Source: Lytechinus pictus (lineage: Eukaryota). Taken from it: 64,000 nucleotides of DNA. The stretch covers positions 1,612,001 through 1,676,000 of the forward strand of contig NC_087251.1 of the NCBI RefSeq assembly GCF_037042905.1. Direction: 5' to 3'. The position numbers and the translations under genes are program-made. Shown piece by piece: positions 4,096-50,522 of the stretch; within the stretch, counting starts at the first letter, position 1; each line of letters starts with the position of its first letter. The notes under the pieces are model-generated. The model saw only the letters and a list, made by a program, of their open reading frames with translations, ran no database searches and had not been told where the DNA came from.

Positions 4096-4696
4096 TTAAA
4101 GGTCAAGTCCACCCCAGAAAAATGTTGATTTGAATAGAGAAAAATCAAACTAGCAAAACGCTGAAGCTTTCATCAAAATCGGATGTAAACTAAGAAAGTT
4201 ATGACATTTTAAAGTTTTCGCTTTTTTTTTTACAAAACAGTGATATGCGCAACTCAAATGAGACAGTCGATGATGTCCCTCACTCACTATTTCTTTTGTT
4301 TTTTATTGTTTGAATTATGAAATATTTCATTTTTTTATAGATTTGACAATAAGGACCAACTTGACTGAATCATATAGTATTAAACAATACTCATTCCACA
4401 TGTTCAGGGTGGAATCAATCGTTGTTTTACTTGACAATGAGGAGAAAAATAGAATATTCCCTATTTCATATAATAAAATACAAAAGAAATAGTGAGTGGA
4501 TGACGTCATCAGCCTCCTCATTTGCATATCCACCAGGATGTGTATATTTAATTGTTTGTTAAATTAAGCAAAACTTTAAAATGTCATAGCTTTCTTATTT
4601 TAAATCCGATTTTGATGAAATTTTCAGTGTTATGCTTGTTGGATTTTTTTCTTTTTATTAAAATCAACTTTTTGTTGTGGTGGACTTGTCTTTTAA
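4096..4696. mobile_element. Kolobok-type (TTAA/AGG) MITE with long inverted arms
   Basis: TTAA-AGGTCAAGTCCAC ... GTGGACTTGTCTT-TTAA; arms of about 200 bp; second copy at 40403. Confidence 0.85.
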
Positions 4697-5361: not shown

Positions 5362-5378
5362 TTGGACAACCATCTGAT

Positions 5379-5670
5379 AATAATAATAATAATACAGGTA
5401 TATTTACCCAGGGAAGCCGCTTCAGTTCCGAAAACTGTTCTCCCAGCGGGCCCTGCTATTATTATTACCCCGGCTTTAGCTGGGCTACCTAGGCGCTCAA
5501 AGCATTGAAGGAATTTCTTCCTACCGGGTACCCATTCATCTCACCTGGGTTGAGTGCAGCACAGTGTGGATAAATTTCTTGCTGAAGGAAATTACGCCAT
5601 GGCTGGGATTCGAACCCATGACCCTCTGTTTCAAAGTCCGAAGACTAATCCACTGGGCCACAACGCTCCA
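5379..5670 (-). mobile_element. Full-length tRNA-derived SINE
   Basis: Minus strand shows A box TGGCCCAGTGG, B box GGTTCGAATCC, (TTA)n tail; CTGAT TSD at 5374 and 5671. Confidence 0.88.
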
Positions 5671-6505: not shown

Positions 6506-6518
6506 GTAAGTTGAATTT

Positions 6519-6604
6519 AATAATAATAATTATAACGGTATATTTACCCAGGGTGGCCACTTCAGTTCCGAAAACTGTTCTCCCAGCAGGCCCTGCTATT
6601 ATTA
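6519..6604 (-). mobile_element. 5'-truncated copy (tail only) of the SINE at 5379
   Basis: Near-identical to 5380-5465 (ggtatatttacccaggg...cttcagttccgaaaactgttctcccagc.ggccctgctattatta). Confidence 0.8.
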
Positions 6605-18223: not shown

Positions 18224-18398
18224 GGGTGGCGGAGGGGTGTGTTTCAACTGCCAAGATAACACACAAGGTCAACATTGTGATGAATGCATAGAAGGGTTCT
18301 TCAGACTTGATGGTGTACCATTGGACTCTACTGATATCTGTGACCCGTGTGAATGTTCTCTCAATGGCACAGTAGCAGGGAATCCCATGTGTGAAGAG
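18224..18398 (+). CDS. USH2A: Exon 10: laminin-EGF
   Basis: tgtag| GGGGVCFNCQDNTQG...CEE |gtaaag. Confidence 0.93.
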
Positions 18399-18401
18399 GT
18401 A

Positions 18402-18476
18402 AAGTAGTATTAGTACAGTGGTGATGGTGGCGGTAGTGGTAATGATGGTGGTGGTGGTAGTAGTTGTAGTTGTAGC

Positions 18477-18555
<79 letters not shown>

Positions 18556-18646
18556 TTGTTGGTTGTGATGGTAGTAGTAGTAGTTCTTGTAATAGCAGTA
18601 GTGGTAGTGGTGGTTGTGGTGGTGGTGGTGGTCATAGTAGTAGTTT
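18402..18646. repeat. (GTA)n/(GTG)n microsatellite directly after the exon 10 donor
   Basis: Pure GTA run at about 18478-18552 with degenerate GTG/GTT flanks. Confidence 0.95.
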
Positions 18647-19184
18647 ATATATAGTGTGAATCAGAAATATATGAATGAAGGAGGAGGATGCCCTAGAAGT
18701 GAGCATCATAGTGCAAGTCAGTATCTGTAACCCTTCATAAGAGGGGGAAATGCTGACTGAAATAGATGATGCTAATGATGATCATGGAAGCCCTTAGGAT
18801 CCAGCAGATAAGGTAAGATTTAAGGTAAGCACCTGATCAGAGCAGCTGTGCTAAATCCAAGGTAATAATACACACTGCTCAGAAACATTGTATCAGCTTT
18901 TATTAAGTGGATGGTGGGGGGGGGGTGAGGTCTCCTAGGTCCCTCTGAACACATGATGAGTTCAACTCATAAGAATTTGACATGATGTTTTCTGATTTTT
19001 CCAAACCGAATTAATTTAAATCATTTACATCCACAACAGAATAAAAACCTTACAAATATATACAAAGTAGAATGTAAGAAAAATTAACAGAGCTGGTTTT
19101 TGCAGATTTTTCTTCAAAATCTTGCACAACTTTTAAGACCAAAAAATCATGATGCCAGTGTAAGGTGTTTTGAATTTACACTGA

Positions 19185-22100
19185 GGTGCTCCAAGAAGTA
19201 GTGGTTTTCACTGCAATTATAGATCACAAGGTTATGAGTTCAAATCATATTTAGGTGCTAAAAGGAGTAGTGGTTTTGTACTGCTGTCTTGAATTACAAG
19301 GTTATGAGTTCAAATCCTATTTAGGTACTCCAAGGAATAGTGTTTTTTCACTGTTGCCTTGAATTACAAGGTTATGAGCTCAAATTTAGGTACTCCAAGG
19401 AATAGTGGTTTTTCACTGTAATTATAGATAACAAGGTTATGAGTTCAAATCATATTTAGGTGCTAAAAGGAGTAGTGTTTTGTACTGTTGCCTTGAATTA
19501 CAAGGTTATGAGTTCAAATCCTATTTAGGTGCTATTTTATAAGGAGTAGTGGTTATGTACTGCTGCCTTGAATGACAAGTTTATGAGTTCAAATCCTATT
19601 TAGGTGCTATAAGGAGTAGTGGTTATGTACTGCTGCCTTGAATTACAAGGTTATGAGTTCAAATCATATTAAGGTGCTAAAGGAGTAGTGGTTTTGTACT
19701 GTTGCCTTGAATTACAAGGTTATGAGTTCAAATCCTGCATTGGTGCTCCAAAGTGTAGTGGTGTTGTGCTGTAATCTTGAATTACAAGGTTATGAGTTTA
19801 AATCCTATTTTGGTACTCCACAGATTAGTGGCTTTGCTTTTTTACCCTGAATCATAAGGTTATTAGTTCAAATCCTATTTAGGTTATATAAGGAGTAGTG
19901 GTTTTGTACTGTCGCCTTGAATTACAAGATTATGAGTTCAAATCCTATTTTGGTGCTAAAAGGAGTAGTGGTTTTGCACTGCAACCTTGAATTACAAGGT
20001 TATGAGTTTAAATCCTACTTTGGTGCTCTACGGAATAGTGGTTTTGCACTGCAACCTTGAATTACGAGGTTATGAGTTCAAATCCTACTTTGGTGCTCTA
20101 CGGAATAGTGGTTTTGCACTGCAACCTTGAATTACAAGGTTATGAGTTCAAATCCTACTTTGGTGCTCTACGGAATAGTGGTTTTGCACTGCAACCATGA
20201 ATTGCAAGGTTATGAGTTTAAATCCTACTTTGGTGCTCTACGGAATAGTGGTTTTGCACTGCAACCTTGAATTGCAAGGTTATGAGTTCAAATCCTACTT
20301 TGGTGCTCTACGGAATAGTGGTTTTGCACTGCAACCTTGAATTACAAGGTTATGAGTTTAAATCCTACTTTGGTGCTCTACGGAATAGTGGTTTTGCACT
20401 GCAACCTTGAATTACAAGGTTATGAGTTCAAATCCTACTTTGGTGCTCTACGGAATAGTGGTTTTGCACTGCAACCTTGAATTACAAGGTTATGAGTTCA
20501 AATCCTACTTTGGTGCTCTACGGAATAGTGGTTTTGCACTGCAACCTTGAATTACAAGGTTATGAGTTCAAATCCTACTTTGGTGCTCTACGGAATAGTG
20601 GTTTTGCACTGCAACCATGAATTGCAAGGTTATGAGTTTAAATCCTACTTTGGTGCTCTACGGAATAGTGGTTTTGCACTGCAACCTTGAATTGCAAGGT
20701 TATGAGTTCAAATCCTACTTTGGTGCTCTACGGAATAGTGGTTTTGCACTGCAACCTTGAATTACAAGGTTATGAGTTTAAATCCTACTTTGGTGCTCTA
20801 CGGAATAGTGGTTTTGCACTGCAACCTTGAATTACAAGGTTATGAGTTCAAATCCTACTTTGGTGCTCTACGGAATAGTGGTTTTGCACTGCAACCTTGA
20901 ATTACAAGGTTATGAGTTCAAATCCTACTTTGGTGCTCTACGGAATAGTGGTTTTGCACTGCAACCTTGAATTACAAGGTTATGAGTTCAAATCCTACTT
21001 TGGTGCTCTACGGAATAGTGGTTTTGCACTGCAACCTTGAATTACAAGGTTATGAGTTCAAATCCTACTTTGGTGCTCTACGGAATAGTGGTTTTGCACT
21101 GCAACCTTGAATTACAAGGTTATGAGTTCAAATCCTACTTTGGTGCTCTACGGAATAGTGGTTTTGCACTGCAACCTTGAATTACAAGGTTATGAGTTTA
21201 AATCCTACTTTGGTGCTCTACAGAATAGTGGTTTTGCACTGCAACCTTGAATTACAAGGTTATGAGTTTAAATCCTACTTTGGTGCTCTACGGAATAGTG
21301 GTTTTGCACTGCAACCTTGAATTACAAGGTTATGAGTTCAAATCCTACTTTGGTGCTCTACGGAATAGTGGTTTTGCACTGCAACCTTGAATTACAAGGT
21401 TATGAGTTCAAATCCTACTTTGGTGCTCTACGGAATAGTGGTTTTGCACTGCAACCTTGAATTACAAGGTTATGAGTTCAAATCCTACTTTGGTGCTCTA
21501 CGGAATAGTGGTTTTGCACTGCAACCTTGAATTGCAAGGTTATGAGTTCAAATCCTGCCTTGGTACTTGAAGGAGTAGTGGTTTTGAACTGTAGCCTTTA
21601 GTTACAAGGTTATGAGTTTAAATCCTACTTTGGTGCTCTACGGAATAGTGGTTTTGCACTGCAACCTTGAATTACAAGGTTATGAGTTCAAATCCTACTT
21701 TGGTGCTCTACAGAATAGTGGTTTTGCACTGCAACCTTGAATTACAAGGTTATGAGTTTAAATCCTACTTTGGTGCTCTACGGAATAGTGGTTTTGCACT
21801 GCAACCTTGAATTACAAGGTTATGAGTTCAAATCCTACTTTGGTGCTCTACGGAATAGTGGTTTTGCACTGCAACCTTGAATTACAAGGTTATGAGTTTA
21901 AATCCTACTTTGGTGCTCTACGGAATAGTGGTTTTGCAATGCCACCTTGAATTACAAGGTTATGAGTTTAAATCCTACTTTGGTGCTCTACGGAATAGTG
22001 GTTTTGCAATGCCACCTTGAATTACAAGGTTATGAGTTTAAATCCTACTTTGGTGCTCTACGGAATAGTGGTTTTGCACTGCAACCTTGAATTACAAGGT

Positions 22101-22450
22101 TATGAGTTTAAATCCTACTTTGGTGCTCTACGGAATAGTGGTTTTGCACTGTAATCTTGAATTACAAGGTTATGAGTTCAAATCCTACTTTGGTGCTCTA
22201 CGGAATAGTGGTTTTGCACTGCAACCTTGAATTGCAAGGTTATGAGTTTAAATCCTACTTTGGTGCTCTACGGAATAGTGGTTTTGCACTGCAACCTTGA
22301 ATTACAAGGTTATGAGTTTAAATCCTACTTTGGTGCTCTACGGAATAGTGGTTTTGCACTGTAATCTTGAATTACAAGGTTATGAGTTCAAATCCTACTT
22401 TGGTGCTCTACGGAATAGTGGTTTTGCAATGCCACCTTGAATTACAAGTT
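19185..22450 (+). repeat. 70-bp tRNA-like tandem array, main block (about 47 units)
   Basis: Consensus GGTGCTCTACGGAATAGTGGTTTTGCACTGCAACCTTGAATTACAAGGTTATGAGTTCAAATCCTACTTT repeated head to tail. Confidence 0.95.
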
Positions 22451-22889
22451 ATAGACATTTAAAAGGTCTTGTACTTTCTATGGGGATCCTCAAATTGGCA
22501 AACATGGTTCAAAATTGCTGATTTTGTGGACAACTCTCCATTTGTTTTGTACACAATTTTTCAGATTTTCCCCATTATCTTTCAAATTGCATATTGCCTC
22601 ATTCTGAGCATAATATATATCATAGGAAAATATAATTCACATCACATATGTTAAGGTCAGGAGAAAATAATGTGAAATATATATAAATATAGGGTTGTCC
22701 ACAAAATCAGCCATTTTGAAACACATTTGCCAATTTGAGGATCCCAATAGAAAGTACAAGAAGACTTTTTAAATGTCTATAACTTGCTTATTTCACAACC
22801 GATTTTGATGAAACTTGTTTTAAATTGTTCCTCTCGTTTTACTCTTTCCAATAAGTTTGCTTCTCTTCTTGAGTTTTGGTTTCCTTTAA
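22445..22889. mobile_element. TTAA-type MITE inserted in the array, left terminus deleted
   Basis: About 95-bp inverted arms (22445-22540 vs 22690-22787); CCGATTTTGATGAAA subterminal motif shared with the 4096 family; ends CCT-TTAA. Confidence 0.75.
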
Positions 22890-23362
22890 GAGTTAAAATC
22901 CTACTTAGGTGTTCCAAGGAGTAGTGGTTGTGCAATGTAACCTTGAATTACAAGGTTATGAGTTCAAATCCTACCTTGGTGCTCTACGGAATAGTGGTTT
23001 TGCACTGCAACCTTGAATTACAAGGTTATAAGTTCAAATCCTGCCTTGGTGCTACAAGGAGAAGTGGTTTTGCAATGTAACCTTGAATCACAAGGTTATA
23101 AGTTCAAATCCTGCCTTGGTGCTTTAAGGAGTAGTGGTTTTGAAATGTAATCTTGAATTACAAGGTTATGGGTTCAAATCCTGCCTTGGTGCTATAAGGA
23201 GTAGTGGTTTTGCAATGTAACCTTGAATCACAAGGTCATAAGTTAAAACCTTGTCATGGTGTTCCAAGGAATAGTGTTTTGGCACTGATATTTGAATCAC
23301 AAGGTTGTGAGTTCAAATCCTGCCTTGATGATCAAAGGAGTCATGGTTTTGCACTGTTACCT
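22890..23362 (+). repeat. 70-bp tRNA-like tandem array, second more diverged block (about 6.5 units)
   Basis: Units start at 22908, 22978, 23048, 23118, 23188, 23258, 23328. Confidence 0.92.
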
Positions 23363-23639
23363 TTTGCTTCAATCATTCGTTTTAAGTCGATTTGGCAGGG
23401 GGGAACTGGGTGATGATAGAGATATATTGAAATTCCAAAATGTATTGGCCCCTCAAAAATCAAGCACATTTTCTCATAACAGTTACTGTACGTAATAAGT
23501 TACGTGTAAGTATTTGTAGCATTATCATTTCTGTGGTGCTAGTTTACTCCCAGGTGTTTCTCAATCGATCTTTTGCTATTCATAATATACTATTAACATA
23601 AGAATATTTACAATTCACATCAATTATGAATATTTTCAG

Positions 23640-23835
23640 GTGAATGGTCAATGTAACTGCAAGCAGTATACATCGGGTCGTACATGTGATACCTGTCAGA
23701 ATGGTTACTACAATCTAGATGCTATAAACCCTGATGGCTGTGAGCCATGTCAATGCATCTCAGCTGGTACAATCAACTCAGATATCTCATGCCATCAACA
23801 GACTGGAGTGTGTAACTGCAAACCTAATGTCATAG
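23640..23835 (+). CDS. USH2A: Exon 11: laminin-EGF
   Basis: ttcag| VNGQCNCKQY...KPNVI G|gttag. Confidence 0.93.
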
Positions 23836-24469
23836 GTTAGTATATCTCAAAGTGTTACTCTTTAACAGAGTCTTTTTAATTGATGTTACATGTCCATGTA
23901 CCATTGTACTTTGTTTAAATAACAAAATAGAAGTTTTTGTTTCTATTATCATGTCAGAAAGATGTGTTTGAGATCGGACTTAAGAGCAATACACGTTAAC
24001 ATGCATACGTGACGCAGTGGTAATCTGATCTTAATTGAGCAATAAAAGTTGATTGATTTAACGTGCAATCAGCTACTGTATGATTTTGTTTTCTCAAGCT
24101 GTCGTTAGTTTTACGCCTTACAATGAATTTCTATAAGCTTGAATGTCTTTTTTTATTATGTTTGTAAGGAGGATGACATGATGTGGGGGGGGGGGGGTAG
24201 ATGCTTGGTGGTGATTGTGGAGGAAAAAGGATTGTGAGATAAGAAGGTACATGTATATCATCCACTTTCAATGGAAGATCCTCCATGGATAAGTGTTTCA
24301 GTTTGTGTGTGTTTCAACTTATAATTTGCACACTGTTTTTCTAGATATTTTTTGTACTGTAACATGTGTAGTGTTCTTTTATGTTGCTTGCTTCTGACTG
24401 TGATACTTCTATTGCTCTTTAATACTTAAGGGAATTACTTAGAAACAAACTGTTTTCACCCTTCTTTAG

Positions 24470-28007: not shown

Positions 28008-30733
28008 TTAAGGACGTTCCACAGTTAAAATGAAGTCCATGTCATTTTCACCAAATTTTGCACAGAGTTACTTTGGTATCTATGCATTATGAAAATGCAA
28101 AAACTAATATAGGTTCATGTGCTTATTTTTTTTCTACGGGACTTCAAAGTTGCGGTATTTGAATGATATGAAATGTTGCGCAATCATGAGAATTATGCCT
28201 CTCTTAGACCTCACGAATTCACCAAATGAGTTTAAATCATCTTTACCCAGTGGATACCGCATCAAACTTCATCAAATTTTCAAGATATATAACAAAGTGT
28301 ATTACAAAGTAAGAAAAAGTCTTTTAATTGGTAAAACTATATCTATTTGGAGTCAGCAGCGCCCTCATTTGGCAAGAATGGTGCAAAAGCTAGGAAAAAA
28401 CAAATCTTCAAAGACGTGAATCTACTCAAAAATAAAAAAAAAGTATTTTATAAGCTGCACTTTTTCAAAATCCATGTCATTTTTATCAACTTCGGCTAAA
28501 CTGTAGAGGAATGTATATGGAAGATGTAGGGAAATTAAAAATATGGGGTCCATGTGCTCGTTCTTTAACTATGAGTGTCAAAAGTGTTGCGACTTTGCAT
28601 GAAAATTGCCTAAAATGCGCCGAAAACATGCAAAAGTCTCATAATACCGTCTGAAATGAAAAGGGTTCCCGTATTTCGCTCCCAAACATTCAAAATCCAT
28701 GTCGTTTTCATTATACTCTCTAAATTTATAGAGGAATATATTCTAAAGCTGTTAAAATATTAAAAATATGGGGTCCATGTGCTCATTTTTCCAAAGTATT
28801 GCGAGTTGGCTTGAAAATATTGAAATCCACCTAAAGTGCGCCGAAAACTTGCAAAAGTCTAATAATACCGTCTAAAATGCGAATGGTTCCGTAGTTTTGC
28901 TCCCAAACATTCAAAATCCATGTCATTTTCATCATAATTTCTAAATTTGTAGAGGAATATATTCTAAAGCCGTTAAAATATTAGAAATATGACGTCCATG
29001 TGCTCGTTTTTAAGTTACCAGTGTCCAAAATATTCCGAGTTGGCTTGGAAATCGCCTAAAATGCGCCGAAAACATGCAAAAGTCTCTTAATACCCTTAAC
29101 AATGCAAATGGTTCTATATTTCGTTCCCAAACATTCAAAATCCATGTCATTTTCATCATACTCTCTAGATTTATAGAGGAATATTTTCTGAAGGCGTTAA
29201 AATATTAAAAATATGGGGTTCATTTGCTCGTTTTTAAACTATCAGTGTCCAAAGTATTGCGAGTTGGCTTGAAAATATTGAAATCCTCCTTAAGTGCAAC
29301 GAAAACGTGCAAAAGTCAAATAATACCGTCTAAAATGCGAATGGTTCCGTAGTTTTGCTCCCAAACATTCAAAATCCATGTCATTTTCATCATACTCTCT
29401 AGATTTGTAGAGAAATGTATTCTAAAGACGTCAAAACATTAAAAATATGGGGTCCATGTGCTCGTTTTTAACTATCACTGTCTAAACTGTTGCGAGTTGG
29501 TTTGAAACGGCCAAAAATGCGCCCGCGAAAACAAGCAAAAGTCTGAAAATACCGTCCAAAATGTCTAAAATACGAATGGTTCCTGAGTCCTGCTCCCAAA
29601 CATTCAAAATCCATGTCATTTTCATCATACTCTCTAGATTTGTAGAGGAATATATTCTAAAGAAGTTCAGACATTTAAACTATGGGGTCCATGTGCTCGT
29701 TTTCAAATTATCAGTGTCCAAAGTATTGCAAGTTGGCTTGAAACAGCCAAAAATGCGCCGAAAAACAAGCAAAAGTCTGTTAATACCGCCTAAAATGCGA
29801 ATGGTTCCGTAGTCTTGCTCCCAAACATTGAAAATCCATGTCATTTTCGTCATACTTTGCACATAGATATCATAGCACCTGAATATTTCAAATATGCAAA
29901 AATCAACATGGGTTCATGTGCTTAATATTTTGCTATAGAGCTTCAAAGTTAACCGAAATGGATGTTCTTAAGAATTGCGCATTCAAAAGAATTTGGCATT
30001 TTTAGACCTCACGAGATCACAACAATGAGTTTAATGCTTTATTACTCAGTCAAAATCCATAAAAATTTCATCAAATTTTGCAACATGATTAAAATTGTAT
30101 CCTTAAGATGGATAATCTATTTATATTGCTTTCAATATTGTTTGCTCATGTAAGTCTAACAGTACTCTCAGTTCTTAGAAATTGTGGGAAAGATATCAAA
30201 AATGTGAAATTTCAATAACAAACTTGAGCAGTAAAAGAAATGCTGCACTTTATTCAAAACCCATGTCATTTTCACCAAACTTTGCAAAGTTGTAGAGGAA
30301 GGTATACCTAAGAGGTGCAAACATTAAAAGATATGGGTTCATGTGCTTGTTTTCAAACTATCAGCACTCTTATTAGAGCAAATGTGCTTCTTAAAACACT
30401 CCCAAAATGCGCTAAAACTTTGTATCCATGTGAGGAAAAATTCCGAACCACTCTACCATTTATTCAAATATTTCATCATACTTTGCAGCACTACAGAGAA
30501 AAGTATTTTGACATTTTAGAGGAATAAAAAAAAATGGTCAATGAAATAACTCCAGTTTATTAGCTTCATAAAATAACACATCGGATCTGCAGTTAGTGCA
30601 GATAAGGAGAAAATTCAGCTCACAATACCTAATGCTGATTAATCACCAGTTCATCCATTGTGACGTCAGCGCGCAGAGTGTAAAATATGCGCAGATCATG
30701 ATGCGCACAAACATAACTGTGGAACGTCCTTAA
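28008..30733. mobile_element. 2.7-kb Kolobok-type non-autonomous element with internal ~225-235-bp tandem subunits
   Basis: TTAA-GGACGTTCCACAGTTA ... TAACTGTGGAACGTCC-TTAA (perfect 16-bp TIR); TCCATGTCATTTTC motif recurs about 9 times. Confidence 0.9.
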
Positions 30734-31003
30734 ATTCCCAGTTGTGTATGATATATGATGCATCACTGCAGATTATGCACAGTAGATATGTGATACTGTT
30801 TGCACCTAAACATGACTTAAGTGAATATTTGTTAAACACCCCTTTGTTATGAATGGTCACTGTATTCTTCTTATAGTTATGCACCATAGTAATCAGTACA
30901 TTGAAGGAATTAGATCCTACAACTTACCTCATCACTTTACCATGGTAAAATACTTTTTGAGTATAGATTAATGTTTGTCTCTTCATTCTCTTTCTTTCAT
31001 CAG

Positions 31004-38701: not shown

Positions 38702-39768
38702 CATAATTCTTAATTATTCATGCTCCTTATTTTAATGTATTCTTTGATCATCCTTCCTTCATAGGATTTGGTGGTTGTATGATAGAGGTAACCATTGATA
38801 ACACTCCAGTAACCCTGACATCTGATAAGACAGACATCCATAATGTCTACCTAGATAATGCTAAAATGCTCATGTTCTCCATTTTACTGTACCCTTTAAT
38901 AATCTATCCCTTACAGGTTTTGGTGGCTGTATGAGAGAGTTGACCATTGATAGCATTCCAGTAAACCTTACATCTGATATGACAGGCATCCATAATGTCT
39001 ACCTAGATAATGCTAAAATGCTCTTGTTCTCCATTCTACTGTACCCTTTAATAATCTATCCCTTACAGGTTTTGGTGGCTGTATGAGAGAGTTGACCATT
39101 GATAGCATTCCAGTAACCCTGACATCTGATAAGACAGACATCCATAATGTCTACCTAGATAATGCTAAAATGCTCTTGTTCTCCATTCTACTGTACCCTT
39201 TAATAATCTATCCCTTACAGGTTTTGGTGGCTGTATGAGAGAGTTGACCATTGATAACACTCCAGTAAACCTGACATCTGATATGACAGGCATCCATAAT
39301 GTCTACCTAGATAATGCTAAAATGCTCATGTTCTCCATTCTACTGTACCCTTTAATAATCTATCCCTTACAGATTTTGGTGGCTGTATGAGAGAGTTGAC
39401 CATTGATAACACTCCGGTAAACCTGACATCTGATATGACAGGCATCCATAATGTCTACCTAGATAATGCTAAAATGCTCTTGTTCTCCATTCTACTGTAC
39501 CCTTTAATAATCTATCCCTTACAGGTTTTGGTGGCTGTATGAGAGAGTTGACCATTGATAACACTCCAGTAAACCTGACATCTGATATGACAGGCATCCA
39601 TAATGTCTACCTAGATAATGCTAAAATGCTCTTGTTCTCCATTCTACTGTACCCTTTAATAATCTATCCCTTACAGGTTTTGGTGGCTGTATGAGAGAGT
39701 TGACCATTGATAACACTCCAGTAAACCTGACATCTGATATGACCGACATTTATAATATCTACCTTGAT
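38702..39768 (+). repeat. 152-bp x7 tandem array of the intron 26 acceptor plus 5' half of exon 27
   Basis: AG| positions spaced exactly 152 nt; exon-like starts at 38765, 38917, 39069, 39221, 39373, 39525, 39677. Confidence 0.95.
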
Positions 39769-40402: not shown

Positions 40403-41012
40403 TTAAAGGTCAAGTCCACCTCAGGAAAATGTTGATTTGAATCAATAGAGAAAAATCAGACAAGCACAATGCTGAAAATTTCATCAAAATCGGATGTAAA
40501 ATAAGAAAGTTATGACATTTTAAAGTTTCGCTTATTTTTAACAAAATAATTATATGAACGAGCCAGTTACATCCAAATGAGAGAGTCGATGATGTCACTC
40601 ACTCACTATTTCTTTTGTTTTTTATTGTTTGAATTATACAATATTTCAATTTTTACGAATTTGACGATTAGGACCTCCTTGCCTGAAGCACAAAATGTTA
40701 AAATAATGGAATTCCACGTGTTCAGGGAGGAATGAAACTTCATTTCACATGACAATGACGAGAAAATCAAAATATTTCATATTTCATATAATAAAATACA
40801 AAAGAAATAGTGAGTGAGTGATGTCATCAGTTCCTCATTTGCATACCGACCGAGATGTGCATATAACTGTTTTGTGAAATGAAGCGAAACTTTAAAATGC
40901 CATAACTTCCTTATTTTACATCCGATTTTGATGAAATTTTCAGTGTTATGCTTGTTAAATTTTTCTCTTTTTATTCAAATCAAGTTTTTGTTGGGGTGGA
41001 CTTGTCCTTTAA
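40403..41012. mobile_element. Kolobok-type MITE, same family as 4096-4696
   Basis: TTAA-AGGTCAAGTCCACC ... GGTGGACTTGTCCT-TTAA. Confidence 0.88.
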
Positions 41013-46540: not shown

Positions 46541-46782
46541 AGAGGTGTTGTGGCTCAGTGGATAAGTCTCTGGACTTTCAACCACAAGGTCTGGTTCACT
46601 GCAGCACTTGCATCCTTTGGTAAAGCATTTATATACATTTGCCTCTCTCGACCTAGGAGTAAATTGGTACCCAGTAGGAAGAAATTCCTTGAATGCTTGA
46701 GCGCCCAATTAGAGTACTCATGCCAAAGCCAGGTAATAGTATGCAATGCTTAGAAACATTGTATTAAGCACTTTATAAATGT
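46541..46782 (+). mobile_element. Degenerate tRNA-derived SINE
   Basis: A box TGGCTCAGTGG; body GGTACCCAGTAGGAAGAAATTCCTTGAATGCTTGAGCGCC matches the 5379 SINE. Confidence 0.75.
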
Positions 46783-46902
46783 AAATCAGATTTAATCTTG
46801 GTTTATAAATTCATAAAGGAGCGACAATCTGATGCAATCATGATAGTTTCTGAAATTTTTGATGGAGGCATACATTTTTTTCTATGTTCAGCTGAGAATC
46901 TA

Positions 46903-47846
46903 TTAAGGACGTTCCACAGTTAAAATGAAATCCATGTCATTTTCACCAAACTTCGCACATAGATACTTTAGAACTTGAATATTCGAAATATGCAAAAATT
47001 AACATAGGTCCATGTGCTGGATTTTTTGCTATAGAACTTCAAAGTTCACCCAACTGGATGTTCTTACAAATTGCGCATTCAAAAGAATTTGGCATTTTTA
47101 AACTTCGCAAGATCACTACAATGAGTTTAAACCTCTATTAATCAGTCAAAATACATGAAAAAGTCATCAAATTTCGCACGTGAGTTAATAATTGTATCGT
47201 TAGAATGGAGAATCTATTTATAGTGCTATTTGTTTGCAATTTTAAGTCTAACAGCACTGTCAGTTCTTAAAAATGGCGTAAAACATAACAAAAACCCAAT
47301 CTCAAAAATGTGAAATATTAATAACAAACTACAAAAGTACAATAAATGCTGCACTTTATTCAAAATCCATGTCATTTTCACCAAAATTTGCAAAGTTGTA
47401 GAGAAAGGTATACCTAAGAGGTACAAACGTTAAAAAATAGGGGTTCATGTGCTTGTTTTCAAACTATCAGCATTTTAATTAGAGCAAATGTGCTTTTTAA
47501 AACACCAAAAATGTGCCAAATGTTTTGTATCTATGTGAAGAAAAAATCAAAACCACTCTACCATTTATTCCAACTCGGGGTCATATTCGTGATTTTTGGC
47601 AGCACTGAAGAGTACAGTATTTTGAAATTGCAGAGATATTTTTTTTAATGGTCCATGGAATAATAAAAGTTTTTTAGCTTCATAAAATAACGCATCGGAT
47701 ATGTAGTTAGAGTGCAGATGATGAGAAAAATCAGTTCATATCCACATCTAATTAATCACCTGTTCATCCATTGTGACGTCAGCGCGCAGAGTGTAAAATA
47801 TGCGCAGATCATAATGCGCACTAACATAACTGTGGAACGTCCTTAA
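46903..47846. mobile_element. Short (936-bp) copy of the 28008-30733 element lacking the internal array
   Basis: Identical 16-bp TIRs with TTAA flanks; interior aligns with 29835-30729. Confidence 0.9.
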
Positions 47847-48045
47847 GTTAAGATTTTACTCTTATTAACATAAGAAATATTAATAGAATAAAACGTTATT
47901 TCAAAATTTAACAAGAATTGTAAATTTTCAGACAGAAGTACATGTATTAAGACAAATCCTTCTTTCCCCTTGTAAACAAGAATAAGTAATGTGATCATAG
48001 GCCCACATATTGCTATTATATGTAATGTATTTTGTTTGTGTTTAG

Positions 48046-50141: not shown

Positions 50142-50441
50142 AATAATAATAATAATAATAACGTATTTCTTGTATAGCGCATATCACATTATGTCATAAC
50201 GTCCCTATGCGCTTCCAAAGGACTTGGATATTATTACCCTGGCTTTAGCCCCGCAGCCTTTTACAGCGCGGTGGCATTTCAAGAAATGAATTCCTGCCAG
50301 GTACCCATTCACCTCACCTGGGTTGAGTGCAGCACAATGTGGATGAATTTCTTGCTGAAGGAAATGACGCCATGGCTGGGATTCGAACCCACGACCCTCT
50401 GTTTCAAAGTCAGAAGACTAATCCACTGGGCCACAACGCTC
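50142..50441 (-). mobile_element. Full-length tRNA-derived SINE, same head as 5379 but a different tail
   Basis: A and B boxes on minus strand, (TTA)n tail, TACAT TSD at 50137 and 50442. Confidence 0.88.
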
Positions 50442-50522
50442 TACATGGGTCACATGTGCATGCTTTATGACATTGCTTTATAAATATTGTGATAATAGTA
50501 TAATGGGTCCTTTTCAATAATG

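What the first reader, a model, noticed from the sequence alone, without database searches (positions are those of the whole stretch)
19185..23362. About 53 spacerless tRNA(Gln)-like units in tandem inside intron 10
Seen: the 70-bp unit is tRNA-sized and tRNA-ordered: A-box-like AATAGTGG, a 5-bp stem with 7-nt loop TGCAA-CCTTGAA-TTACA with TTG at the anticodon position, then B box GAGTTCAAATCC. Two recurring variants (TGCAA..TTGCA and TGTAA..TTACA) each restore perfect pairing of that stem. An alternative hairpin AACCTTG-AATTA-CAAGGTT overlaps it. The unit aligns without gaps to the head of the local SINE (41/70 by my count). The acceptor stem does not pair, many units break the B box (GTTTAAA), and each has an internal T4. 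Established: B boxes bind TFIIIC, clustered TFIIIC sites can act as insulators, and T4 terminates Pol III. Inference: a satellite born from a tRNA or SINE head. It is not a set of functional tRNAs, but it could be a dense TFIIIC platform or a source of structured small RNAs from the sense pre-mRNA.
Basis: partly seen in the sequence, partly recalled or inferred. Interest (0 to 1): 0.8.

Follow-up and report, generated by a model that had tools for sequence, protein, structure and literature searches.

The report
Intronic minisatellite from a SINE head
An intron of an usherin gene holds about 53 head-to-tail copies of a 70-base unit that matches the tRNA-like front end of a short mobile element (SINE); the copies look worn and are likely a neutral repeat of a kind already described in reptiles, not working tRNA genes.

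Summary
The array is real: 52 near-full and 2 partial 70-bp units (19184-23363), split by a truncated MITE, in an intron that a transcript contig splices out. The unit matches two local SINE heads ungapped (42/70 and 40/70; 0 of 2000 shuffles; 27 of 50 outside the promoter boxes), and the array starts at the SINE's 5' end. It is not a tRNA set: no ARAGORN or Rfam hit, no covariation, strict A box in 0 of 54, internal T4 in 50 of 54. 'Gln' is unsupported: TTG is inherited from the SINE head. The same array borders the same flank in a second, related organism, so it is old. Most likely a SINE head duplicated at a short microhomology, then expanded and homogenised neutrally, like reptile SINE-derived satellites. 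One hint for function remains: 34 of 54 units keep a B box, the least-changed 9-mer (6 changes against 15.5 expected, post hoc), though C56T has spread to 16 units. TFIIIC binding is untested. New member of a known kind; interest 0.27.

The parts
19184..22452 (+). Left block of the array: 47 units of about 70 bp (last one partial, 52 nt)
19184..19950 (+). Old left-edge units 1-11, mean pairwise identity 0.82; unit 1 begins at the phase of the SINE 5' end
20021..22400 (+). Homogenised core, units 13-46 (33 units without the stray old unit 35: mean pairwise identity 0.98), with a repeated three-unit block
22445..22888 (.). TTAA-ended inverted-repeat element (MITE) inserted in the array; about 100 bp of its left arm are missing; the junction with unit 47 lies in a short shared word
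22884..23363 (+). Right block: 23-nt scrap, 6 near-full units and a 38-nt partial unit; mean pairwise identity 0.84; its last units and flank are also present in organism B
18399..23639 (+). Host intron (GT..AG) of the usherin gene, spliced out in a 4162-nt contig of run X1
18224..18398 (+). Upstream usherin exon (laminin EGF region)
23640..23835 (+). Downstream usherin exon (laminin EGF region)
5378..5670 (-). Dispersed tRNA-type SINE copy with intact A and B boxes; head 42/70 identical to the unit
50190..50443 (-). Second SINE copy; head 40/70 identical to the unit
46541..46790 (+). Third, more diverged SINE copy; shares the CACAAGGT word with edge units; weaker match overall (5 of 1000 shuffles)
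18794..18906 (+). Decayed 3' half of a SINE, 280 bp upstream of the array, same orientation
   Evidence: score 74; 0 of 256 real-window controls reach it, maximum 70

Best explanation
The array is an intronic minisatellite whose 70-bp unit matches the whole tRNA-like head of a SINE, and it most likely arose by local duplication of one inserted SINE head and has since likely drifted without function. Shown: the tandem structure, the match to the SINE heads, the 5' boundary at the SINE's first bases, splicing of the intron, presence at the same site in a related organism, and decay of the Pol III signals. Inferred steps: (1) a SINE related to, but not identical with, the local family inserted here in sense orientation; (2) a ~5-nt microhomology between its first bases and the end of its acceptor-like arm gave a spacerless dimer; (3) unequal exchange expanded the array, with recent block duplications homogenising the middle and leaving old units at both edges; (4) a MITE inserted, and a deletion took its left arm and part of a unit; the SINE body was lost or decayed. 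The units are predicted not to yield tRNAs or full Pol III transcripts (no proper A box, T run in mid-unit); TFIIIC may bind the remaining B boxes incidentally.
For: 42/70 and 40/70 ungapped identity, 0 of 2000 shuffles, best two matches in the window; 27 of 50 and 25 of 50 outside the two boxes against 25% expected, binomial P 1e-5 and 1e-4. Gapped alignment of unit 51 covers the head end to end, both the head's start and its acceptor-arm end falling on the unit junction (score 68 and 65; 0 of 1000 shuffles). Array 5' end at unit phase 1-2, as for the three SINE copies. In organism B, contigs match the 3' half of unit 51 and go on into SINE head or SINE body sequence (loose ends at 23153 and 23185). 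Edge-old, core-young pattern: identities 0.82 left, 0.84 right, 0.78 between, 0.98 core; repeated three-unit block. Decay: strict A box 0 of 54, T4 in 50 of 54, C56T in 16 units, CpG 3 in each head against 0-1 in the unit, no covariation, MITE insertion and deletion tolerated. Precedent: snake sSat3, a 67-nt unit holding box B, with homogeneity rising with array length (PMC10702118).
Against: Identity to the local heads is only 57-60%, so the true parent was not found; the edge consensus pairs its anticodon-like stem 5 of 5 against 3-4 of 5 in the heads, which would fit a more tRNA-like ancestor. No SINE body follows the array (38, 85 and 161 of 200 shuffles score as high) and no target-site duplication was found. 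Rfam similarity is at chance level for the unit (tRNA-Sec 14.2 bits, E 2.3) and for the SINE head (17 bits, E 0.81). The B box is the least-changed of 70 nine-base windows (6 changes against 15.5 expected, P 0.0085) and the array has lasted across a species split: neither is predicted by pure neutrality, though both are compatible with it.
Confidence: 0.68

Rival explanations
1. Same origin, but the array is kept by selection as a dense cluster of TFIIIC sites without transcription (an extra-TFIIIC platform acting as barrier or tether inside the usherin gene).
For: 34 of 54 units keep G53-C61 intact; that window has the fewest parsimony changes of all 70 (P 0.0085 with base-type-matched permutation); unit fragments seen in organism B mostly keep the box while neighbouring bases differ (loose ends and joint letters; a handful of fragments, two of them with a change at or beside the box). 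The B box is the main TFIIIC site and ETC sites exist without Pol III (PMC12409998 passages); in C. elegans 214 extra-TFIIIC sites lie on the tRNA-like CeRep3 repeat (PMC6950938 passages).
Against: The test was post hoc, one of 9 regions, on a tree of units that recombine; the non-box window at positions 45-53 is nearly as low (observed/expected 0.44 against 0.39); for the six key bases alone P is 0.064; 4 of the 6 changes hit C56, and C56T stands in 14 of the 34 units 13-46, the youngest part. C. elegans sites carry both boxes; here the strict A box fails in all 54. MITE insertion tolerated.
Confidence: 0.12
2. Neutral minisatellite, but copied directly from a tRNA gene or pseudogene, or from the tRNA module of another repeat of this genome, rather than from a SINE head.
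For: The unit ends where the tRNA-like part ends and no SINE body follows; the anticodon-like stem pairs better in the edge consensus than in the SINE heads; earlier unchecked notes report 334-bp and 407-bp tRNA-bearing tandem elements in this genome.
Against: The unit shares non-box sequence and two extra features with the SINE head: the same 5' start and the same shifted 5'/3' pairing register. SINE heads in organism B match the unit's 3' half at 80% or more. A SINE relic lies just upstream in the same orientation.
Confidence: 0.12
3. The array was inserted ready-made by rolling-circle reverse transcription of a circular 70-nt tRNA-like RNA (retrozyme-like).
For: The unit is almost exactly one tRNA-like domain with no spacer; similar mobile tandem elements are reported for this genome in earlier unchecked notes.
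Against: No target-site duplication; the 5' end sits at the SINE start, not at a random phase; left and right edges form separate groups; no second array in the window.
Confidence: 0.04
4. The array is a functional source of structured or phased 70-nt small RNAs cut from the excised intron or made by Pol III.
For: Sense orientation in a transcribed gene; a 7-8 bp hairpin forms in the fold and unit 51 folds better than shuffles (z -2.55, 5 of 200); run X1 has one 100-nt contig of array units at depth 2.8 against 22.9 for the spliced contig.
Against: Core unit z -1.13 and dimer z -0.58; no covariation for the hairpin (227 of 500) or the cloverleaf (156 of 500); the hairpin's 5' arm is among the most changed parts (24 changes against 16.2 expected); the low-depth contig is what pre-mRNA or DNA carry-over would give.
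Confidence: 0.04

Closest known systems
SINE-derived satellites (sSat) of scaled reptiles, especially snake sSat3 and gecko sSat3Ppi2 (Vassetzky et al. 2023, PMC10702118; abstract, Background, Squam3 section, Discussion read; supplements not read)
   Same: Head-to-tail copies of part of a tRNA-type SINE; snake unit is 67 nt and holds box B; the gecko minor variant matches the tRNA portion; long arrays are more homogeneous and carry alternating sub-variants.
   Different: Here the unit is the whole head with both box positions and no body; identity to the known SINE is only about 60%; no extended terminal unit runs into the SINE body; one intronic locus seen, in an invertebrate, against tens to thousands of mostly subtelomeric loci.
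Amphibian tRNA-related tandem repeats: newt PolIII/TAN, Xenopus OAX/satellite I, Rana/polIII, Hy/polIII (as summarised in PMC10702118 Background and PMC12054243 passages; original papers not read)
   Same: Tandem repeats that carry a tRNA-like Pol III promoter region.
   Different: Units of about 200-360 nt or more with non-tRNA sequence, no matching SINE known, and PolIII/TAN is transcribed in vitro; here the unit is 70 nt, tRNA-like throughout, with a T run in mid-unit and a SINE relative in the same window.
C. elegans extra-TFIIIC sites on CeRep3 (PMC6950938, passages read) and yeast/human ETC sites (PMC12409998, passages read)
   Same: tRNA-like repeats with B boxes that could bind TFIIIC without Pol III.
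   Different: CeRep3 is interspersed and its sites carry both boxes, with binding shown by ChIP; here the copies are contiguous, the A box is degenerate and binding is untested.
tRNA-derived SINE families of sea urchins (SURF1/SINE2-4c_SP, SINE2-1/2/3/8_SP; names seen in passages of PMC3747384 and PMC4824008)
   Same: The local SINE has a tRNA-like head with both boxes, a body and an (ATT)n tail.
   Different: No family consensus was available, so the family was not assigned; that the host is a sea urchin rests on earlier unchecked notes, not on a test here.

Membership tests
SINE-derived satellite (sSat) | At least four head-to-tail units | tested here: met
   52 near-full units
SINE-derived satellite (sSat) | Unit similar to part of a SINE present in the same genome | tested here: met
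   42/70 and 40/70, 0 of 2000 shuffles; 27 of 50 outside the boxes; exact parent subfamily not found
SINE-derived satellite (sSat) | Usually a longer terminal unit that runs on to a SINE terminus (minor variants lack it, per the paper) | tested here: inconclusive
   5' end coincides with the SINE 5' terminus; no SINE body in the 3' flank
SINE-derived satellite (sSat) | Homogenisation within long arrays | tested here: met
   core 0.98, edges 0.82-0.84
SINE-derived satellite (sSat) | Several loci per genome, subtelomeric preference | not testable with these tools
   no whole genome held; only this array in the window
Functional tRNA gene array | Cloverleaf recognised by tRNA finders | tested here: not met
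   ARAGORN 0, Rfam gathering 0, best tRNA-clan score 14.2 bits at E 2.3
Functional tRNA gene array | Paired stems kept by compensatory change | tested here: not met
   66.7% of cells paired; covariation reached by 156 of 500 shuffles
Functional tRNA gene array | A box and B box, no T run inside the gene | tested here: not met
   strict A box 0 of 54, B box 34 of 54, T4 inside 50 of 54 (consensus motifs recalled)
tRNA-Gln derivative | Closer to tRNA-Gln than to other isotypes | tested here: inconclusive
   only phage tRNAs could be searched: 0 Gln among 25 rows listed of 789 records for the head; unit matches have E 2 or worse; no eukaryotic tRNA set on hand
Extra-TFIIIC (ETC) cluster | B-box motifs | tested here: met
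   34 of 54 units
Extra-TFIIIC (ETC) cluster | TFIIIC bound without TFIIIB/Pol III | not testable with these tools
   needs ChIP or CUT&RUN
Retrozyme-like mobile tandem element | Target-site duplication and dispersed arrays | tested here: not met
   longest word shared by the two flanks is 8 nt, 100-200 nt from the end; dispersal not testable beyond the window

The most novel reading that the evidence does not exclude
A SINE head was amplified into a contiguous cluster of over 30 B boxes that has been kept across a species split as a transcription-independent TFIIIC platform inside the usherin gene: a promoter-only satellite in which the A box and the RNA structure decayed while the B box was spared.
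Probability: 0.12. Interest if true: 0.62.

Novelty: new member of a known kind. Interest (0 to 1): 0.27.

Why it matters
If neutral, it is a clear invertebrate example of a SINE-to-satellite transition, a link described for squamates whose authors left its wider range open (PMC10702118 Discussion); my searches listed no echinoderm case, but the library lacks most subscription journals. The locus shows the whole life history in 4 kb: start at the SINE end, microhomology junction, old edges, young core, MITE insertion. If the B boxes are bound and selected, it would be a natural test of whether a dense TFIIIC cluster can act as a barrier within a transcribed gene.

Tried and rejected
No whole genome is held, so copy number of arrays and the parent element could not be searched. 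ARAGORN and Rfam at gathering level: nothing; Rfam by E-value on the array gave only a chance miRNA match on the MITE, and on 23100-23270 a bacterial sRNA match (E 0.79) that outranks the tRNA-clan match, so both are treated as chance. Exact unit patterns in metagenome and viral contigs: 0 hits. A SINE-head pattern in metagenome contigs gave 4 loci, none with a tRNA, 21-29/70 identical to the unit: unrelated. Sequencing-run search: 4 runs with 5-7% of 120 words; no RNA holder listed on record. Summed contig depth is not a copy number and was not used. The protein search confirmed usherin (best named match 47% identical) but did not resolve the taxon. A 35-bp sub-repeat origin of the unit was tested and rejected (104 of 300 shuffles score as high). 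A decayed extra head at 18905-18972 scored only 27-28 and is not claimed. Earlier-findings look-ups by sequence, relatives and words returned nothing. In one search the two partial units were dropped, identical units were collapsed to 29 and the misaligned tail of unit 52 was masked; alignment A3 holds 25 units and the 2 SINE heads. Only 23117-23840, not the whole array, was laid on the runs, so the left block and core are untested in organism B.
Full report
Observation. Tandem Repeats Finder reports two 70-bp arrays, 19185-22452 (46.7 copies) and 22886-23363 (6.8 copies). Cut in register they give 54 segments, 52 near full length and 2 partial, plus a 23-nt scrap. No further copy occurs in the window. 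The gap between the blocks is an inverted-repeat element ending in TTAA, related to elements at 4096-4696 and 40403-41012; about 100 bp of its left arm are missing and the junction with unit 47 lies in a short shared word. The host is an usherin gene on the + strand (laminin N, laminin EGF, laminin G and fibronectin III domains; best named match a bird usherin at 47%). tblastn shows 9 exons upstream and one unmatched gap, so 'intron 10' is plausible. A 4162-nt contig of run X1 (RNA by guess) matches the downstream exon with 1 difference in 200 and continues directly into the upstream exon, so the array lies in a spliced-out intron. Earlier unchecked notes call the genome a sea urchin; I did not test that.

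Relation to the SINE. Three copies of a tRNA-type SINE lie in the window. The unit consensus matches two heads without gaps at 42/70 and 40/70; 0 of 2000 dinucleotide shuffles, allowed any rotation and strand, reach these values (maximum 35), and the two heads are the best two matches outside the array (next 35). The match is not only the boxes: 27 of 50 and 25 of 50 other positions agree, against 25% expected (P 1e-5, 1e-4). The third copy matches more weakly (5 of 1000 shuffles). Unit 51 aligns to the head from end to end, with the head's first bases and the end of its acceptor-like arm both falling on the unit junction, which offers a ~5-nt microhomology for the first duplication (mechanism inferred). 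The array begins at unit phase 1-2, where the three SINE copies also begin, and breaks off at phase 38; no SINE body (38, 85, 161 of 200 shuffles as high) and no target-site duplication follow. A decayed SINE 3' half lies at 18794-18906 in the same orientation. At 57-60% identity the local family is a relative of the parent, not the parent.

It is not a tRNA set. ARAGORN finds 0 genes and Rfam 0 matches at gathering level. By E-value, unit 51 scores 14.2 bits against tRNA-Sec (E 2.3) and a SINE head 17 bits (E 0.81): chance level. The strict A box (consensus recalled) is met by 0 of 54 units but by both heads; a run of four or more T lies between the boxes in 50 of 54. The B box is intact in 34, C56T in 16, otherwise broken in 2 and absent in 2. 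The predicted fold of the core unit is the AACCUUG hairpin, not a cloverleaf, z -1.13; unit 51 reaches z -2.55. On 25 units plus 2 heads the cloverleaf has 66.7% of cells paired and a covariation score reached by 156 of 500 shuffles; the hairpin 227 of 500. The Gln label rests on TTG alone, which the SINE heads share; among 25 listed phage matches to a head (of 789 records) 8 are tRNA-Arg, 3 Glu, 2 Asn, 2 Lys, 2 mixed clusters, 8 unannotated and none Gln; these are bacterial-type tRNAs, so the isotype stays open.

History. Mean pairwise identity is 0.82 among 11 left-edge units, 0.84 among 6 right-edge units, 0.78 between them and 0.98 among 33 core units; a three-unit block is repeated in the core. 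This is the pattern expected from unequal exchange (established knowledge of satellites; also described for sSats). Runs X2-X4 (organism B, one sample, DNA by guess) hold contigs that run from the last units into 64 nt of unique flank (23277-23427, 18-19 differences in 150), flank contigs with 14-15 differences in 171, and joints that go back by 119-187 nt; so a tandem array stands at the same site in a related organism about 8-12% diverged. Since edge units differ by 16-22%, the array likely predates that split. In B other contigs match the 3' half of unit 51 and go on into SINE head or body sequence (loose ends), further support for the SINE link. Only 23117-23840 was laid.

Function. Against a selected role: loss of the A box, spread of C56T (14 of the 34 units 13-46), CpG loss (3 per head, 0-1 per unit), no covariation, a tolerated MITE and deletion. 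For one: by parsimony on 29 distinct units the B-box window has 6 changes against 15.5 expected (P 0.0085) and ranks lowest of 70 windows. The test was post hoc, one of nine, on recombining units; positions 45-53 are nearly as quiet (0.44 against 0.39), the six key bases alone give P 0.064, and 4 of the 6 changes are at C56. The B box is the main TFIIIC site and ETC sites bind TFIIIC without Pol III (PMC12409998, passages); C. elegans extra-TFIIIC sites often lie on a tRNA-like repeat but carry both boxes (PMC6950938, passages). Incidental binding is therefore plausible and selection unproven. Run X1 holds one 100-nt contig of array units at depth 2.8 against 22.9 for the spliced contig, which cannot be told from pre-mRNA or DNA.

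Comparison and verdict. The closest known kind is the SINE-derived satellite of squamates (PMC10702118; abstract, Background, Squam3 section and Discussion read, supplements not): snake sSat3 has a 67-nt unit with box B, gecko sSat3Ppi2 matches the tRNA portion. Amphibian tRNA-related tandem repeats have longer units. This array meets the core features (tandem units, SINE similarity, homogenisation), is inconclusive for the extended terminal unit, and differs in being the bare head with no body. Searches listed no echinoderm example; the library is incomplete. Verdict: real, SINE-head-derived, likely neutral (0.68); a selected TFIIIC platform is not excluded (0.12). New member of a known kind, interest 0.27.

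Noticed in passing
window 38703-39768: 152-bp tandem repeat (6.6 copies, 96% matches) that repeats part of a laminin-G-region exon of usherin with the intron sequence before it; resembles the exon-edge repeats that earlier unchecked notes report for this genome.
   Followed up: no
window 22445-22888, 4096-4696, 40403-41012: Family of TTAA-ended inverted-repeat elements (MITEs); the copy in the array lacks about 100 bp of its left arm.
   Followed up: partly
window 18794-18972: Decayed SINE 3' half, possibly followed by a further decayed head (weak), just upstream of the array in the same orientation.
   Followed up: partly
window 19157-19183: An 8-bp perfect inverted repeat (12-nt loop) ends exactly at the array's 5' boundary (read by eye).
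   Followed up: no
window 21561-21630: A single old-type unit (11 differences from the core) sits inside the homogenised core, after a unit with a right-edge-type tail: a remnant that escaped homogenisation.
   Followed up: partly
window 28008-30736 and 46903-47849: A ~900-bp dispersed repeat, one copy of which has an internal ~225-bp tandem expansion (6 copies): a second repeat-derived tandem array in the same gene.
   Followed up: no
window 5378-5464 and 6518-6604: The 3' tail of the SINE at 5378-5670 recurs alone, 92% identical, about 1.1 kb away (5'-truncated copy).
   Followed up: no
window 18457-18644: (GTA)n microsatellite of about 63 copies just after the upstream exon.
   Followed up: no
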